From a virus (Duplodnaviria > Heunggongvirae > Uroviricota > Caudoviricetes): DNA of 64,000 bases. The notes beneath the pieces are model-generated. The model saw only the letters and a list, made by a program, of their open reading frames with translations, was not told where the DNA came from and made no database searches. Where the stretch lies: the IMG/VR virus record IMGVR_UViG_3300027301_000002. One strand, 5' to 3'. A program made the translations under genes and the position numbers. This document shows positions 2,917-54,338 of this stretch, piece by piece; within the stretch, counting starts at the first letter, position 1, and the number at the start of each line of letters is the position of its first letter.

Positions 2917-3148
2917 GTTTGAAGATCAAGATGTGCACGTCGTTTCACGATGGCTCGCGCTGATCCGTTCAGTAAATGTCATTTTTGATAAAGCCGATAA
3001 ATTAGGAGTTCACGAAGATCTTGTTGATTTATCGCCAAACGACATTCAAGATTATATTGATGATATAAGCGGGGATATTTATTTTGAAATTATGGGATCT
3101 GGCAACGCCAATAAAATCCGACCATACGCATCTCGTTTGACTGCATGA
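2876..3148 (+). CDS. Hypothetical protein
   Basis: Tiled ORF; its stop overlaps the next start (ATGA). Confidence 0.5.
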   Translation: MKKLRKYQRPKPNKFEDQDVHVVSRWLALIRSVNVIFDKADKLGVHEDLVDLSPNDIQDYIDDISGDIYFEIMGSGNANKIRPYASRLTA

Positions 3149-3390
3149 ATTATATTCCTGGTGAAAAGCTTGAAGTGTTGAACGAACGATATTCATCCTT
3201 GGGATTTTCGCCTGGGGTATTTATCATACAAAATATCCGTCTCGATAGAGAGACACAAGAAATTGTCTATCGATTTACGAACGGCAAAACCATCAAATTT
3301 AAATCCATCCAAGAGGCGGAGGCGATTTTTGATAGAATAAAGGGCGTAGTCCGTGAGATGACTACGCCCTTAGGTGGTGACGGGTATTAA
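3145..3390 (+). CDS. Hypothetical protein
   Basis: Last gene of the plus-strand run, convergent with the tail tube gene. Confidence 0.5.
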   Translation: MNYIPGEKLEVLNERYSSLGFSPGVFIIQNIRLDRETQEIVYRFTNGKTIKFKSIQEAEAIFDRIKGVVREMTTPLGGDGY

Positions 3391-3403
3391 TTGAGGTTGA
3401 GTA

Positions 3404-4045
3404 TTAGCAGGCGTTTCCAGCACCAAGAGCAGGTGTAAGGCCAGTCGTTCTGTCGAAATCTGTAATGACTTGTGCCCCAGGAACTTTGGATTTATTGATA
3501 CGGTAGTATTGATATGCCAATGTTGCATTGAATGTCATGACTTCGGCATTGCCGGTCAATTCAAATGACAATCCATTAAACGCTACTGGATATACACCAA
3601 TCAAATCATAGTATCTTACTGCTTCTCCCTTAATGTTTAACAAGGCTAGCGTAATGATATTTCTGCTATTAGGCACTCCATAGCAGCCCGTGGATGTTCC
3701 ATCATCGAAGATATCGTAGCTCATTTGCTCGAATGCGTTTCGAATTGAAAGATCACCAGGCAATCTGAATGTAACTTGCCAGTTGTTGCTGTTATCATAT
3801 TTGGCGTTGCCTGGTACATTAAAATCCAATCCCATAAATGGTGCGGTAACGTTTTGGATAGTCCGGCCTGGCACTGTGGCTGTCGTTAGATATGCGTTTG
3901 AAATGCCACCATCTAGAGACGTTAACTCTGCCGCCAGTTTAGATAAAATGCCATCTCCATTGATCGCAGCAATGCGGAAGAGATTTCTTCGCTGAAATCC
4001 CTTTCTTTGGATTGTGTCGTAGTAGTCTTGAATACCTTGTGCCAT
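3404..4045 (-). CDS. gp19: Tail tube protein (T4 gp19-like)
   Basis: ATVPGRTIQNVTAPFMG, WQVTF, and YDLIGVYP...LAYQYY pattern of gp19; lies downstream of the sheath gene. Confidence 0.85.
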   Translation of the reverse strand: MAQGIQDYYDTIQRKGFQRRNLFRIAAINGDGILSKLAAELTSLDGGISNAYLTTATVPGRTIQNVTAPFMGLDFNVPGNAKYDNSNNWQVTFRLPGDLSIRNAFEQMSYDIFDDGTSTGCYGVPNSRNIITLALLNIKGEAVRYYDLIGVYPVAFNGLSFELTGNAEVMTFNATLAYQYYRINKSKVPGAQVITDFDRTTGLTPALGAGNAC

Positions 4046-50121: not shown

Positions 50122-51378
50122 ATGCATTTTAATACCCAGCCACATATTCATGGTAGTGTTTTCGGCAAGCCCGCATTTGGAAATTATAATCCAGAATTCT
50201 TCCGCCATAGGATGGATCAACAAACAGAGCAGTTGAGAAATTCTCAACAGGTTGTCAATACTACTGAACCTCCAGGTGCGGGCCTCAAGAGAGCTATTCA
50301 TTTCTATGCTGATTATGGTGGGTGTGGATTATGGAGAATGTCATGGCCAGAATTGCTAATGAATGGGTATAATAAAACAGTAGTCAATGGGTTGACACAA
50401 ATGAATACGGATCCCAATTTTTACAGACCAGTAAATGCTATCAAATTACAAAGACAAGCAACTAACGAACAACTCATGTTTGTTAAATTCTTGAAATCAA
50501 TGCAAAAAGAGTTTGGATTTAAATTGATCTACGAAGTGGATGATGTTGTATTCTCCGAAGATATCCCCCTATACAACACAAGCAGACCTGCATTTACAGA
50601 TCCCCAAATTAGAAGTAATATTATAGAAATTATTAATCTATGTGATGAAATGTGTGTAGTCTCTCCATACATGAGAGATTACTATAAGAAAAAATCAGGC
50701 AAGCAAGAAATCAACGTCATTCCAAACTATGCCCCTAAATTCTGGCTTCATGATTTTTATGACCCGATTAAGATTGACAAGAATTACGTCAAAAATAAAA
50801 AGAAACCAATAATCGGGTATATGGGATCTGGCACTCATTTTGACCCGGCTAATACTGCGAATCAACAAGATGACTTTGCACATGTTATTGAAGCAATTAT
50901 CAAAACGCGGAATAAGTTTCAGTGGGTATTTATGGGTGGCATTCCGATGAGATTGCTGCCCTTTGTAAATCGAAAAGAAATTATTCACGTGCCGTGGGTA
51001 AACATTTACGAAATGCCAAGAACATTTGGATCTCTTAATATCAATGCCGTAATCGCACCACTCGCACGTAATGAATTCAATCGTGCAAAATCGGATATCA
51101 AAATGCTTGAGGCTGGTGCATTAGGTATTCCCGGAGTATATCAAGACATGGAACCATACCAAGAGGCGCCGTTCAAATTCAAAACAGGCGATGAAATGAT
51201 TTCTAAATTAGAAACACTGCTTAAAGATAGAAATGAATACCTTAAGCAATCAGTGAAGGCGCGCAAATTTGCAGAGAAGAGATGGCTAGATGACCATCTT
51301 GATGAACATGTTGAGATGCTGTTCAAGATGCCAACCGAAAATAGACCAGCCATCGCTAATAATGGATTCAATGTATAA
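50122..51378 (+). CDS. GT-B fold (GT4-like) glycosyltransferase
   Basis: GCGLWRMSWP, YEVDD, VIPNY, IGYMGS.TH, IAPL..NEFNRAKSDIKMLEAG..GIP. Confidence 0.75.
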   Translation: MHFNTQPHIHGSVFGKPAFGNYNPEFFRHRMDQQTEQLRNSQQVVNTTEPPGAGLKRAIHFYADYGGCGLWRMSWPELLMNGYNKTVVNGLTQMNTDPNFYRPVNAIKLQRQATNEQLMFVKFLKSMQKEFGFKLIYEVDDVVFSEDIPLYNTSRPAFTDPQIRSNIIEIINLCDEMCVVSPYMRDYYKKKSGKQEINVIPNYAPKFWLHDFYDPIKIDKNYVKNKKKPIIGYMGSGTHFDPANTANQQDDFAHVIEAIIKTRNKFQWVFMGGIPMRLLPFVNRKEIIHVPWVNIYEMPRTFGSLNINAVIAPLARNEFNRAKSDIKMLEAGALGIPGVYQDMEPYQEAPFKFKTGDEMISKLETLLKDRNEYLKQSVKARKFAEKRWLDDHLDEHVEMLFKMPTENRPAIANNGFNV

Positions 51379-51383
51379 TTTGC

Positions 51384-51412
51384 TTGATTAATGAGCCACC
51401 ACATGTTATGAT
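51384..51412 (+). promoter_or_regulatory. Sigma70-like promoter for the polymerase N-fragment
   Basis: TTGATT-17 nt-TATGAT with TGn extension. Confidence 0.6.
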
Positions 51413-51417
51413 ATCTC

Positions 51418-51843
51418 ATGTGGAGAAATGTTTACTATGACAATAGCCGCAAGAAGATTTTCTTGTGGAGTTGGGATAAAAATGGCAAACGCAAAATGTA
51501 TGATTTTGAGTATGAGCCATTCTTGTATGTAGAGACAAACAGTGCTCAGTATGATGCAAAAAGTCTTTTCAATACCAACCTTAAAAAGATTGTATTCAAA
51601 AACGAATCAGCAAGAAATCAATATGTAAAGGATGCAGGCATTCGTCGTGTGTTCTATAACTTGAGAGCAGAGCAACAATTTTTACTTGATCTTTATCGCG
51701 ATAAAGAATTTGATTGGTCTCATTTGCCATTCAAAACATTTTATTTGGATATTGAAGTTTATACTGCAAAGTATAAAAATGATAAAAAAGTCAAAATACG
51801 CAAAAAGATAGACACACAAAAAACGCGGGGAAGCAATATCTAA
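51418..51843 (+). CDS. gp43: Family B DNA polymerase, N-terminal fragment (N-domain to Exo I)
   Basis: YEPFLYV, QQFLLDLY and Exo I YLDIEVY, followed by a basic tail and TAA. Confidence 0.85.
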   Translation: MWRNVYYDNSRKKIFLWSWDKNGKRKMYDFEYEPFLYVETNSAQYDAKSLFNTNLKKIVFKNESARNQYVKDAGIRRVFYNLRAEQQFLLDLYRDKEFDWSHLPFKTFYLDIEVYTAKYKNDKKVKIRKKIDTQKTRGSNI

Positions 51844-51988
51844 AGCAAAAAAAGGAGTCAAAACAAACCAAAAACAATTAACATCGTCAAGACTTAAAAA
51901 AATGTCAGACGAAGAATTTGAAATCTATTTATCGAAAATTAATCCATGCACAAGAAAACGCATGATACACTACCGAAACAATGAATGA
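51812..51988 (+). pseudogene. Start-less remnant resembling the C-terminal DNA-binding (NUMOD3-like) tail of a homing endonuclease
   Basis: 58 open codons in a third frame: THKKRGEAISKAKKGVK...LKKMSDEEFEIYLSK...RNNE*, whose TGA overlaps the ATG region of the polymerase C-fragment. Confidence 0.5.
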
Positions 51989-54338
51989 AGTAATTGAAAC
52001 AACATTGGGTGAAATCCGTGGAAATCCGCAACTACTTGAGCAATATGAAATCTGGGACGAAGAGACAAAGGAATGGACTTCATATCATAATTCATGCTAT
52101 ACTCATCAGTCAGAATTTCCAGAAGCAGACGAAGCAAAACATCCAATCAACGTAATCACAATTTATGATAACATATCTGAAAGCTTTTATAGTTGGGGTT
52201 TACATCCGTACGAAAAATCTGGCATCAACGCCGCGTTCGCATCGCAAGGAATTAAAGAGTTGGATGTTCAGAGAATCCATTATACCTATTGTAGAACCGA
52301 AACGGAGTTGCTCCAAAAATTTCTAGAGTTTTGGTCTAAAGATTATCCAGATGCAGTAACCGGATGGAATATTGAAGGGTTTGATATTCCATATATCATT
52401 AATCGGATTTCTTATGTTTTGGGAGAGGATGAAGCAAAGATGCTCTCTCCTGTGCGCAAGCTTTATGTTCGACAAGGAATTGCTACAAAGTTTGGCAGAG
52501 AAATTAATAAGTGGTATATTCGAGGAATGACTTGTCTTGATTATATGGACTTGTACAAGACCTTTAGTAGAGGAGAACAAGATTCATATTCTCTTAACAA
52601 CATTGCAGCAGCAGAGCTTGAAATTGGTAAATTGGCCCACAATGCGTCGGATTTGGCAGCGCTTGCTGAAAGCGATTGGAATTCATTTGTTCATTACAAT
52701 ATTCATGACGTAAACCTTGTCAGATTGTTGGACGAAAAATTGAATTATGTTACTATTGCGAGATTCTTAGCTTATAAAGGATTTACCAAAATCGAAGACT
52801 CATTGGGTAAAATTATGATAGTGACTGGTGCGATGTGCAAGGAAGCTAATCGCATGAATAAAATCATTCCGACATTCAATGCAGTTGCAACACAAGAGGA
52901 TTATGTTGGTGGATATGTCCGAGAACCGCAGCGTGGGTTGAATGAAGCAGTTGTATCATTTGACGCCAACTCCCTATATCCAAATACGATCATCACCCTG
53001 AATCTTTCACCGGAAACAAAAATCGGTAAAATCATTTACAGGGATGACACCGAATGCAAAGTAAGATTTATCAACAAAAAAGAACAAGTATTTACCATAG
53101 ACCAGCTTGAGGAATTTTGTACAAAAGGAAGGCTTGCATTATCACAAGCAGGTGTTTTGTATCGTCAAGATGTCAAAGGCATTTGTCCGACTTTTATTGA
53201 TTCACTTTATCAAGAACGGGTTGTTATCCAAAACCAAATTGAACAGCTTGAATCACAGCAAGTAACACCAGAAATTAAACATAAGATTAAGCATTTGGAT
53301 CAGATGCAGTACACAATCAAGATTTTCTTGAATTCTGCGTATGGTACTTATGCGAACAAATACAGTCCGTTCTATGATATTGATATGGCTGCAAGTATTA
53401 CGGAAACAGGGCAGGCGGTTATTAAACAAGCAGCATCGATTGTTAATAAATTCTTTGTCGAGGAAAATGGTTTGCCGGATAAGGATTATATCGTATATGG
53501 AGACACAGATTCGGTTTATTTAACTATTAAAGATTACCTCACAAAACATAATATTCCGATCTTAAAGGAAAACGGAGACGTTACAGAAGAATGCGTTGCA
53601 GCAACGGATACACTACAGTCATTCATCAATGATAAAATTAATCATTGGGCGCGCAATACATTACATTCAGTAGATCCGCGATACTTCTTCAAGAGAGAAT
53701 CAATTTGTGATGTTGGTCTTTTCTTGGAAAAGAAACGGTATATTCTTAGTGTGAGGTATGATGGCAAAAGAAACAAACACAAATACAAATATGTTGGTGT
53801 TGAAGTTCAGCGCAGTACATATTCAAATGCTGTTAAGAAGTTGATGAAGGATATCATTACGACCGCGTTTAAATCAAAAGATCGTGCGATTACTGACGCA
53901 AAGTATAGAGAGTGTTATGAGAGTTTCAAGACCTTACCAATTGATGATATTGCATTGCGTTCCTCTATTAAAGATTATGAGAAATATGCTTCACAGTCGA
54001 ACGGATTCAATATTGCATTGCATACTCCTATTCATGTCAAATCGGCGATTTATTTCAATACATTAATTAATACATTGAATTTGAAATCAAAATACATGCC
54101 AATCATTTCGGGCACAAAGATTCGGTATGTATACACAGCCCAAAACAAATACGGGCTCAAATGTATTGGATTTAATGACACAATCCCACCAGAGTTCGAC
54201 ATTAAAATCGACACAGAAAAAATGTTTGAGAAGCTAGTTGCACCTTGCATTGAAAGAGTGTATAGTTGTATCGGCTGGCAAATTCCAGACATGAGCAGAC
54301 AATATCAATGTGATTTTTTAGATCTTTTTGCCTTATGA
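51981..54338 (+). CDS. gp43: Family B DNA polymerase, C-terminal fragment (rest of exonuclease plus polymerase)
   Basis: EFP...HPINVIT, Exo II GWNIEGFDIPY, Exo III YNIHDV, Pol A FDANSLYP, Pol B KIFLNSAYG, Pol C YGDTDS. Confidence 0.95.
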   Translation: MNEVIETTLGEIRGNPQLLEQYEIWDEETKEWTSYHNSCYTHQSEFPEADEAKHPINVITIYDNISESFYSWGLHPYEKSGINAAFASQGIKELDVQRIHYTYCRTETELLQKFLEFWSKDYPDAVTGWNIEGFDIPYIINRISYVLGEDEAKMLSPVRKLYVRQGIATKFGREINKWYIRGMTCLDYMDLYKTFSRGEQDSYSLNNIAAAELEIGKLAHNASDLAALAESDWNSFVHYNIHDVNLVRLLDEKLNYVTIARFLAYKGFTKIEDSLGKIMIVTGAMCKEANRMNKIIPTFNAVATQEDYVGGYVREPQRGLNEAVVSFDANSLYPNTIITLNLSPETKIGKIIYRDDTECKVRFINKKEQVFTIDQLEEFCTKGRLALSQAGVLYRQDVKGICPTFIDSLYQERVVIQNQIEQLESQQVTPEIKHKIKHLDQMQYTIKIFLNSAYGTYANKYSPFYDIDMAASITETGQAVIKQAASIVNKFFVEENGLPDKDYIVYGDTDSVYLTIKDYLTKHNIPILKENGDVTEECVAATDTLQSFINDKINHWARNTLHSVDPRYFFKRESICDVGLFLEKKRYILSVRYDGKRNKHKYKYVGVEVQRSTYSNAVKKLMKDIITTAFKSKDRAITDAKYRECYESFKTLPIDDIALRSSIKDYEKYASQSNGFNIALHTPIHVKSAIYFNTLINTLNLKSKYMPIISGTKIRYVYTAQNKYGLKCIGFNDTIPPEFDIKIDTEKMFEKLVAPCIERVYSCIGWQIPDMSRQYQCDFLDLFAL

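What the first reader, a model, noticed from the sequence alone, without database searches (positions are those of the whole stretch)
51418..52121. DNA polymerase fractured inside Exo I, with an intein-like fossil split over both halves
Seen: the N-fragment ends just after the catalytic DIE (51748-51756) with TAKYKNDKKVKIRKK plus a short tail and TAA. The C-fragment starts 137 nt later in another frame and carries 44 extra residues (MNEVIETTLGEI...QYEIWDEETKEWTSYHN-SCY) before the EFP that follows DIEV almost directly in T4-type gp43. Exo II/III and all Pol motifs are intact, so the proofreading site must be built from two polypeptides. Established: phage 'fractured genes' have split inteins flanking a homing endonuclease, and atypical split inteins have very short N-parts. 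Inference: KYKNDKKVKIR aligns with intein block A (CxxxDTxVxIR) with Cys1 lost, and HN-S matches the intein C-terminal junction, but about 55 residues is far too small for a Hint fold. It may be a splicing-dead intein relic domesticated as a non-covalent heterodimerisation clasp.
Basis: partly seen in the sequence, partly recalled or inferred. Interest (0 to 1): 0.85.

Follow-up and report, generated by a model that had tools for sequence, protein, structure and literature searches.

The report
Polymerase gene split by selfish cassette
A river phage's only DNA polymerase gene is cut in two inside its proofreading site by the decayed remains of a mobile endonuclease cassette, and the two proteins probably stay together through a small pair of oppositely charged tails that belong to the cassette; this trick has been shown once in a phage ribonucleotide reductase and appears here as a widespread, conserved family.

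Summary
The T4-type PolB is encoded by two ORFs, 51418-51843 (141 aa, ending just after Exo I DIE) and 51981-54338 (785 aa), 137 nt apart and in different frames. The sequence is identical in independent DNA and RNA-library contigs.

It holds the last 58 codons of a MobE-like HNH homing endonuclease. Relatives show a full series at this exact site:
- an empty site;
- a complete cassette (basic N tail ..KIRKK, HEG, acidic C head ..YEVWDEE..SCY);
- a split without HEG;
- an in-frame fused insert, including in a 99% relative.

A profile search found about 80 clusters, all PolB: about 46 split and 34 fused.

It is not a working intein. The two tails total about 60 aa. There is no Hint hit, no conserved nucleophile, and the window's "HN" is not conserved. 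Descent from an intein split near its N-terminus (S1 site) remains possible but unproven.

The tails are under purifying selection, carry opposite charges, and are predicted to fold into one mini-domain and to touch each other.

The best reading is a two-piece polymerase assembled non-covalently, as with the Aeh1 NrdA-a/MobE/NrdA-b tails. I class it as a new variant of a known kind.

The parts
51418..51843 (+). polB N fragment (141 aa): N-terminal domain plus the first exonuclease strand carrying Exo I D111/E113
   Evidence: product recorded on 35 contigs
51748..51756 (+). Exo I motif D-I-E
51760..51807 (+). Cassette N tail YTAKYKNDKKVKIRKK (net charge +7). I-R-K is invariant in 10 split relatives.
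51808..51843 (+). 11-codon extension (IDTQKTRGSNI) plus TAA. This is an out-of-frame read of the endonuclease remnant; the deletion removed the cassette's usual stop right after KIRKK[ST].
51812..51988 (+). Remnant of the MobE-like HNH homing endonuclease gene: the last 58 codons plus TGA. The catalytic domain is gone. Its stop overlaps the start of the C fragment.
   Evidence: BLASTP to intact HEGs of L019 and L080: 46% identity, E 9e-14 and 1e-12. It is the only match to this HEG in the genome.
51981..54338 (+). polB C fragment (785 aa): acidic head, the rest of the exonuclease domain (Exo II, III), palm, fingers and thumb
51981..52112 (+). Cassette C head, 44 aa (net charge -8 counted through the adjacent Glu, 45 aa), with the conserved motifs TLGE.R, YE[VI]WDE.....W and SCY
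51760..51765 (+). Left copy of the 6-nt direct repeat TATACT (Tyr-Thr) bounding the 338-nt insert
   Evidence: the same kind of Y-[ST] repeat bounds the cassette in L019
52098..52103 (+). Right copy of the TATACT repeat

Best explanation
The window holds a 'gene in pieces'. A mobile cassette sits in the loop after the first exonuclease strand of a T4-type PolB. In its complete form the cassette has three parts: a short basic coding tail (..[YF][KR].D..[IV]KIRKK[ST], then a stop), a free-standing MobE-like HNH homing endonuclease gene, and an acidic coding head of about 44 aa (M.E..ITLGE.R....YEVWDEE...W.SY..SCY).

In this phage the endonuclease gene has been deleted down to its last 58 codons, so the cassette can no longer move by itself. 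The deletion also removed the normal stop of the N fragment, which now runs 11 codons into the remnant.

The polymerase is made as two polypeptides of 141 and 785 aa. Asp111 and Glu113 of Exo I come from the small one; Exo II, Exo III and all polymerase motifs come from the large one. The two co-fold. The basic tail and the acidic head pair up as one small beta-beta-alpha-beta-beta mini-domain that projects from the exonuclease hairpin and helps hold the pieces together without any splicing.

Shown here: the split, the endonuclease remnant, the cassette family and its states, selection on the tails, and the charge pattern. Inferred: that the two proteins assemble, that the tails drive or stabilise this, and that the C fragment is translated by coupling to the remnant ORF whose stop overlaps its ATG.
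For: 1. The split is real.
2. The spacer is the 3' end of the HEG.
3. The HEG family is phrog_655 'homing endonuclease' (E 1e-37) with weak Pfam HNH hits. It is 42-50% identical over its N-terminal ~100-120 residues to free-standing HNH endonucleases annotated in T-even-type phages, most of the listed hits lying next to nrdA.
4. The full cassette is at the same site in L009/L010, L018, L019, L022, L080, L092 and L100-102. L017 is split without a HEG. L003, L038/39/44, L096/97 and L099 carry the insert fused in frame. About 65 loci have an empty site.
5. A profile search of 1.84 billion representatives gave 80 clusters, all PolB, about 46 split and 34 fused.
6. The distribution on the PolB tree is patchy: at least 9 changes, of which 7 are forced by supported branches. 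HEG-bearing L019 is sister to insert-less PolBs.
7. The tails are translated and constrained: C-head pN/pS is 0.02-0.24, and the tail/head pairs measured (nine) all have opposite charges.
8. The complex model scores ipSAE 0.91 against a best control of 0.00. That mark was reached by 58 of 80 solved complexes and 2 of 110 mismatched pairs. The three runs agree in at least 88% of contacts and the partner's pLDDT is at least 83. N tail 118-130 touches C head 2-47. This pass may rest on likeness to solved single-chain PolB structures.
9. The fused insert folds confidently in context (pLDDT 83-93 over residues 111-170, 77 for 171-180) with the same beta-beta-alpha-beta-beta topology as when folded alone.
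10. The complete, terminally repeated 195,888-bp genome has one PolB and no PolA. The phage is present in at least 18 river DNA runs and 6 RNA libraries.
11. Precedent: the mobE-derived tails of Aeh1 NrdA-a/NrdA-b have pI 10.4 and 3.8 and are essential for activity (PMC3045599).
Against: No experiment shows that the two proteins bind or that the tails matter. In Aeh1 the tails were not needed for heterodimer formation, only for the higher-order assembly.

The complex score could be reached from the PolB fold alone.

No Shine-Dalgarno sequence is evident before either fragment, so how the C fragment is translated is a guess.

Fused forms are almost as common as split ones. The mini-domain may therefore have a role of its own, or may predate the endonuclease.
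Confidence: 0.75

Rival explanations
1. The mini-domain is an older in-frame insertion of some PolB lineages. The endonuclease later invaded the DNA of its central loop. On this view the tails did not arrive with the endonuclease; they are the two halves of a pre-existing domain.
For: About 34 of 80 clusters carry the insert unsplit. The fused insert folds confidently. The endonuclease always sits at the same loop, after the KIRKK strand.
Against: Insert-bearing PolBs are scattered among insert-less close relatives, needing at least 9 changes. That pattern needs many precise losses, unless conversion by co-infecting relatives is invoked. Every HEG at this site comes with both tails, and L017/L092 and the window/L003 pair show that HEG loss does happen. 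The window's insert differs more from L003 than the flanks do: 42/48 against 328/342 nt.
Confidence: 0.15
2. The two tails are a very small working split intein, and protein trans-splicing joins the halves into one polymerase.
For: A HEG lying between two gene halves is the arrangement of 'fractured genes' (PMC2677866). The same phage has a true fractured nrdA with a canonical split intein. Natural N-inteins can be as short as 15-16 aa (PMC10189870, PMC13014065). The window has HN-S.
Against: N tail plus C head total about 60 aa, against about 130 or more for a Hint domain, and there are no block B, F or G motifs. The residue at the N junction varies (T, G, I, S, C, M). Asn before SCY is present in only about a quarter of family members. 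Pfam Intein_splicing detects a 100-aa N-intein and a 165-aa mini-intein from this lineage but nothing in the insert at E<=10. Fused forms keep the insert stably in frame.
Confidence: 0.03
3. A single polypeptide is restored at the RNA or ribosome level: an intron is spliced out, or the ribosome frameshifts twice or hops over the insert.
For: A-rich runs lie at both frame changes. A TATACT repeat at both ends could serve as take-off and landing codons.
Against: No Rfam family matches, even at E<=10. An RNA-library contig spans 51706-52103 unspliced and no joints were seen, although contigs cannot exclude a minor spliced form. The tail codons are under protein-level selection. Relatives with a 0.8-0.9 kb HEG in the gap cannot be hopped over.
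Confidence: 0.04
4. The gene is a sequencing artefact or a dead pseudogene.
For: Homopolymer A runs lie near the frame changes.
Against: The sequence is identical in independent DNA and RNA-library assemblies, and the same product is on 35 contigs. The same split occurs in divergent relatives. It is the only polymerase of a complete genome. All catalytic motifs are intact.
Confidence: 0.02

Closest known systems
Aeromonas phage Aeh1 nrdA-a / mobE / nrdA-b, with tails derived from the mobile element (Crona et al. 2011, PMC3045599)
   Same: An essential T4-like replication or nucleotide-metabolism gene is cut in two by a free-standing MobE-type HNH endonuclease. The upstream piece carries an extra basic C-terminal tail and the downstream piece an extra acidic N-terminal tail. 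The active site is composite and there is no splicing. The authors also raised a degenerate-intein origin.
   Different: The host gene (PolB) and the site (Exo I hairpin) differ. The tails here form a conserved sequence family found in about 80 clusters and in very divergent PolBs, in both split and fused states, with a predicted common fold. The Aeh1 tails had no database match and show no significant similarity to this profile (1.1 bits; 393 of 1000 shuffles score as high). In the window the endonuclease is only a remnant.
Fractured genes: split inteins flanking a free-standing homing endonuclease (Dassa et al. 2009, PMC2677866)
   Same: The gene order is N half, HEG, C half, with cassette-borne coding sequence on both sides. 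They are known from environmental phage-like DNA. This phage has a true example in nrdA.
   Different: The flanking pieces here are far too small for a Hint domain, lack the catalytic residues, and persist as a fused insert, so no protein splicing is expected. The endonuclease is HNH, not GIY-YIG or Vsr-like.
Atypically split (S1-site) inteins VidaL and PolB16 OarG (PMC10189870, PMC13014065)
   Same: The N piece is 15-16 aa and ends after the second beta strand. One of them sits in a phage-type PolB. The insert profile aligns weakly with VidaL across the stretch that includes the split point: VQIRltKKGmIEEKKVTVQELREL against vKiRkk/meekeitlgelr.
   Different: That match has E 1.2. PolB16 lies at the YGDTDS motif, not at Exo I. 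The C-inteins run to 168 aa (PolB16; VidaL chain 145 aa) with all splicing motifs, whereas the C head here is about 44 aa with none.
Split gp43 (43A/43B) of Aeromonas phages such as phage 25 (Petrov, Karam and co-workers, as cited in PMC2677866)
   Same: A T4-type PolB is encoded by two genes, in one case with a homing endonuclease between them.
   Different: By that citation the genes are 2-3 kb apart and the endonuclease is GIY-YIG. To my recollection, which I did not check here, that split lies in the polymerase part rather than inside Exo I.

Membership tests
Family B DNA polymerase, T4 gp43 type | Exo I (DxE), Exo II and Exo III motifs, plus polymerase motifs A, B and C | tested here: met
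   Pfam DNA_pol_B_exo1 (E 7e-18) and DNA_pol_B (E 4e-34) match the C fragment. DIE is in the N fragment. The other motifs can be read. Identity to cyanophage and vibriophage gp43 is 31% over 92-96% of the length.
Homing-endonuclease-fragmented gene with cassette-borne tails (Aeh1 nrdA type) | A free-standing HNH (Mob-type) endonuclease gene lies between the two halves | tested here: met
   Nine related loci have an intact HEG (phrog_655, E 1e-37; 42-50% identity to HNH endonucleases annotated in T-even-type phages, mostly next to nrdA). The window keeps only its last 58 codons.
Homing-endonuclease-fragmented gene with cassette-borne tails (Aeh1 nrdA type) | Extra C-terminal and N-terminal tails that are absent from uninterrupted homologues, with opposite charge | tested here: met
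   Empty-site relatives read DIEVYSPYEFPE. The tails have net charges +2..+7 and -3..-8 in all nine pairs measured.
Homing-endonuclease-fragmented gene with cassette-borne tails (Aeh1 nrdA type) | The tails are needed for assembly or activity | not testable with these tools
   There is only a model: ipSAE 0.91 against a best control of 0.00, with tail-head contacts.
Split intein / fractured gene with intein | A Hint domain of about 130 aa or more with splicing blocks A, B, F and G | tested here: not met
   The insert is 57-66 aa in all 80 clusters. Pfam gives no hit at E<=10, while true inteins of the lineage score E 1.6e-11 and 5.9e-8.
Split intein / fractured gene with intein | A conserved Cys/Ser/Thr at intein position 1, and a terminal Asn followed by a +1 nucleophile | tested here: not met
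   The N junction varies (T, G, I, S, C, M). Asn precedes SCY in about a quarter of members. Only the Ser of SCY is nearly invariant.
Split intein / fractured gene with intein | Structural similarity to the Hint fold | tested here: inconclusive
   Foldseek gives E>3. VIA-align gives Z 2.2-3.5 for 11 intein chains among its top 50, but BRK, GINS and KOW chains also recur in that list, and GYF domains appear among the weak rows there and in AlphaFold DB. The VidaL sequence match has E 1.2.
Group I/II intron | A conserved ribozyme core and a spliced RNA | tested here: inconclusive
   No Rfam match at E<=10. An unspliced RNA-library contig spans the insert and no joint was seen. Contigs cannot exclude a minor spliced form.

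The most novel reading that the evidence does not exclude
The tail pair is the surviving stub of an intein that was split at the S1 site (after its second strand). It lost its catalytic middle and end and was kept as a portable, charge-matched clasp of about 15 + 44 residues. This clasp travels with a MobE-like endonuclease and lets the endonuclease break essential genes, even inside an active-site beta sheet, without killing the phage. That would be a third route for selfish elements, 'self-neutralising by non-covalent re-assembly', beside RNA and protein splicing, with a traceable evolutionary link to inteins.
Probability: 0.3. Interest if true: 0.8.

Novelty: new variant of a known kind. 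Interest (0 to 1): 0.6.

Why it matters
Crona et al. proposed in 2011 that tails carried by a mobile endonuclease might be a general way to neutralise the fragmentation of essential genes. They had one case, and its tails matched nothing in the databases.

Here the same logic appears as a conserved and widespread sequence family in the replicative polymerase of uncultured T4-like phages. All stages of the homing cycle are preserved: empty site, full cassette, decaying endonuclease, split without endonuclease, and re-fused insert.

This gives a natural comparative series for asking:
- how a beta sheet that carries catalytic residues can be assembled from two chains;
- whether such tails descend from inteins;
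- whether a pair of about 15 + 44 residues could serve as a small non-covalent protein-complementation tag.

It also warns annotators that short 'orphan' ORFs upstream of truncated polB genes in metagenomic phages can be functional halves.

Tried and rejected
- Rfam scan of 51000-53000 at E<=10: only a chance snoRNA hit.
- blastn against GenBank phages: only 47-68-nt matches in polB.
- tblastn of the C head against 50,697 phage records: no match at E<=1, so the cassette tails were not found in deposited phage genomes at that sensitivity.
- Pfam and PHROGs on the insert and on the remnant: nothing meaningful.
- ESM Atlas look-up of the insert: no usable hit.
- Fold searches with the isolated insert model in PDB, a representative PDB set, AlphaFold DB clusters and BFVD: no significant match.
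- Homology between the Aeh1 NrdA tails and this family, suggested by 'YEVYEDEE': the profile score is 1.1 bits and 393 of 1000 shuffles score as high, so rejected.
- A co-conversion gradient around the insertion site (L019 vs L076, L017 vs L060): identity is flat at about 75-90%, with no gradient.
- A search for an intact copy of the HEG in the same genome: only the remnant was found.
- The promoter and terminator scan gave no more promoter-like sites than shuffled sequence; one terminator-like site lies on the minus strand.
- The VidaL paper itself (PMC7275667) is not held, so the exact VidaL split residue was taken from PMC13014065 (16-aa N-intein, S1 site).
Full report
**What is in the window**

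The T4-type family B polymerase gene is in two ORFs.
- The first ORF, 51418-51843, encodes 141 aa. It ends ..LDIEVYTAKYKNDKKVKIRKKIDTQKTRGSNI*, with the Exo I DIE at 51748-51756.
- The second ORF, 51981-54338, encodes 785 aa and starts 137 nt later in another frame. It has 44 residues (MNEVIETTLGEIRGNPQLLEQYEIWDEETKEWTSYHNSCYTHQS) before the EFPEADEAKHPINVITIYD that follows DIEV almost directly in uninterrupted relatives.
- Pfam places DNA_pol_B_exo1 and DNA_pol_B in the large ORF. Exo II, Exo III and motifs A, B and C can be read in the translation.
- The nearest deposited phage polymerases are only about 31% identical.

**The split is not an error**

- The N-fragment product is recorded on 35 contigs, the longest 196.6 kb.
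- The stretch is held by 18 riverine DNA runs and 6 metatranscriptome runs.
- A DNA contig, possibly the source, is identical over 51300-52500. An RNA-library contig covers 51706-52103 without a single difference, gap or joint. These are contigs, so they show that the unspliced form is present; they do not show that a spliced form is absent.
- The genome is a complete 195,888-bp record with terminal repeats. It has one PolB and no PolA, so this is the phage's only polymerase.

**What the spacer is**

A 99% relative (L003) has one continuous 1083-aa PolB with a 57-aa in-frame insert at this site. It reads DIEVYTAKYKNDKKVKMRKAKNSNEVIETTLGEIRGNQQILEQYEIWDEETKEWTSYHNSCYTHQSEFPE. The window equals L003 plus 167 extra nucleotides.

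Read in the third frame, 51812-51985 gives 58 codons (THKKRGEAISKAKKGVKTNQKQL..MSDEEFEIYLSK..). These align with the C-terminal end of intact endonucleases found at the same place in relatives: 46% identity, E 9e-14 to L019 and E 1e-12 to L080.

Those endonucleases have these properties:
- They are 269-290 aa long.
- They match phrog_655 'homing endonuclease' at E 1e-37 to 1e-32 and have weak Pfam HNH hits.
- Over their N-terminal ~100-120 residues they are 42-50% identical to free-standing HNH endonucleases annotated in T-even-type phages, most of the listed hits lying beside nrdA. I take these to be the MobE type; that name comes from PMC3045599 and my own knowledge.

The window therefore carries a decapitated homing endonuclease gene. 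The deletion also removed the cassette's usual stop codon, so the N fragment runs on for 11 out-of-frame codons. The remnant's TGA (51986-51988) overlaps the ATG of the C fragment (51981). Intact cassettes show the same kind of overlap between the HEG end and the C-fragment start.

**The cassette family**

Ninety-odd related polB loci from IMG/VR and Logan show every state at this one site.

| State | Loci |
|---|---|
| Empty site (DIE[VT]YSP.[EQD]FP) | about 65 loci |
| Full cassette | L009/L010, L018, L019, L022, L080, L092, and the very distant PolBs L100-L102 |
| Split, HEG completely gone | L017, whose close relative L092 still has the HEG |
| Split with HEG remnant | the window |
| Fused in frame | L003, L038/39/44, L096/97, L099 |

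The full cassette reads as follows. The N fragment ends ..[YF][KR].D..[IV]KIRKK[ST]*. The HEG follows. The C fragment starts M.E..ITLGE.R....YEVWDEE...W.SY..SCY.....FPEP.

A profile of the insert, searched against 1.84 billion representative proteins, found 80 clusters at E<=0.001. All have PolB context and all have the same small insert. About 46 begin at the C head (split) and about 34 carry the insert internally (fused). None has an intein-sized insert. No deposited phage genome matches the C head.

On a tree of 86 PolB cores the insert needs at least 9 gains or losses, 7 of them forced by supported branches. HEG-bearing L019 is sister to five insert-less PolBs, and L092, L017 and insert-less L060 share one supported clade. 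The presence/absence unit is always tails plus HEG, or the tails alone. This is the pattern of a homing element going through invasion, decay and loss.

A Tyr-[Ser/Thr] codon pair is repeated at both ends: TATACT in the window, TTTAGC/TATAGC in L019.

**Are the tails an intein?**

Evidence against a working intein:
- N tail plus C head total about 60 aa.
- No residue at the N junction is conserved.
- The 'HN' before SCY is peculiar to the window's lineage (L017/L092 keep only the Asn), and Asn occupies that place in only about a quarter of members.
- Pfam's Intein_splicing model finds the true mini-intein that L003 carries at YGDTDS (E 1.6e-11) and the 100-aa N-intein of this phage's own fractured nrdA (E 5.9e-8). 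It finds nothing in the insert at E<=10.

Leads towards an intein ancestry:
- The profile's only intein hit in the PDB is VidaL, an atypically split intein with a 16-aa N piece. The score is E 1.2 (12.5 bits). The alignment, VQIRltKKGmIEEKKVTVQELREL against vKiRkk/meekeitlgelr, spans the split point.
- VidaL and PolB16 OarG (15-aa N piece, in a PolB but at the DTDS motif) are split at the S1 site after strand 2 (PMC13014065, PMC10189870).
- The AlphaFold model of the insert has pLDDT 78 alone and 83-93 over residues 111-170 in context (77 for 171-180). Its topology is beta-beta-alpha-beta-beta, with the natural break between the first two strands.
- Eleven of the top 50 VIA-align rows for that model are inteins, but at Z 2.2-3.5. 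BRK, GINS and KOW chains recur in the same list, and GYF domains appear among the weak rows. Nothing is significant in the PDB, AlphaFold DB or BFVD.

I therefore treat descent from an S1-split intein as possible (about 0.3), not as shown.

**How it most likely works**

- The tails are translated and constrained. C-head pN/pS is 0.02-0.24 while pS is 0.46-0.73; for example, L017 against L092 gives pN 0.02 and pS 0.73.
- In all nine tail/head pairs measured the N tail is basic (+2 to +7) and the C head acidic (-3 to -8).
- A two-chain prediction (N fragment plus the first 330 residues of the C fragment, each with an alignment of split relatives) scored ipSAE 0.91 against a best control of 0.00. 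That mark was reached by 58 of 80 solved complexes and 2 of 110 mismatched pairs. The runs agree in at least 88% of contacts and the partner's pLDDT is at least 83. The DIE strand (104-116) is inserted between C-fragment strands, and the N tail (118-130) touches the C head (2-47).
- Because solved single-chain PolB structures exist, this pass may reflect likeness rather than evidence that these two chains bind.

The experimental precedent is phage Aeh1. There mobE split nrdA, the basic NrdA-a tail (pI 10.4) and the acidic NrdA-b tail (pI 3.8) came with the insertion, and deleting them cut activity about 2000-fold (PMC3045599). I computed +6 and -10 for those tails and found no significant sequence similarity to the present family. 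The relation is one of mechanism, not demonstrated homology.

**Verdict**

It is partly wrong or incomplete: there is no intein junction, and the endonuclease remnant and the mobile cassette were missed.

The kind of system, a gene fragmented by a homing endonuclease and rescued by cassette-borne tails, is known from one studied case. New here are:
- the site, inside Exo I, so that a central active-site strand is supplied in trans;
- a conserved tail pair predicted to fold as one mini-domain and shared by very divergent polymerases;
- the complete natural series of states.

Earlier work in this scan had already noted a true fractured nrdA in the same genome (e1-1848526). I looked at that locus and used it as a positive control for intein detection.

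Noticed in passing
L003:4531-5025 (IMGVR_UViG_3300007735_000736): The 99% relative of the window's PolB carries a 165-aa mini-intein at YGDTDS|C..VHN|S (Pfam Intein_splicing, E 1.6e-11). The window lacks it. So two near-identical phages differ by two independent selfish elements in one gene.
   Followed up: partly
L105:1875-5755 (own genome, about 28 kb upstream of the window): nrdA is fractured by a canonical split intein. The N-intein of about 105 aa has C..TKDH motifs and the C-intein ends SHN|S. A 362-aa ORF lies between them and did not match the polB cassette HEG at E<=0.001.
   Followed up: partly
L015:4334-4400 and L004:942-1010: PolBs whose N-terminal core is 71-74% identical read DIEVYTRKADGSRGEFP, seven residues longer than the empty site. 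This may be a footprint of imprecise cassette loss, or an unrelated small indel.
   Followed up: no
L101:2989-4944: The C fragment of this distant split PolB runs into an intein-like sequence (..KVTEDHSIMVDRDGYLIEVKPTDI..) before the contig ends. It therefore has both the Exo I cassette and an intein.
   Followed up: no
L009:1-4960: Upstream of the split polB, a LAGLIDADG endonuclease gene lies on the opposite strand (2991-3896) among SMC/Rad50-like (gp46-type) ORFs. gp46 may be in pieces there too.
   Followed up: no
window 50122-51378 vs L001:1508-2641: The glycosyltransferase-like gene just upstream of polB is 418 aa in the window and 377 aa in the 79% relative, which lacks an internal block of about 41 aa.
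   Followed up: no
Synechococcus phage ACG-2014f records (e.g. KJ019144, 119006-121689): The cyanophage polB matched in two pieces, with 'DNA polymerase (x2) | hypothetical protein (x2)' annotated under the match. This is another split gp43 at a different site.
   Followed up: no
window 51418 and 51981: Neither polB fragment has a recognisable Shine-Dalgarno sequence upstream. The only AGGAG in the region (51853-51857) lies inside the HEG remnant with no start codon after it. The host may not use SD-led initiation.
   Followed up: no
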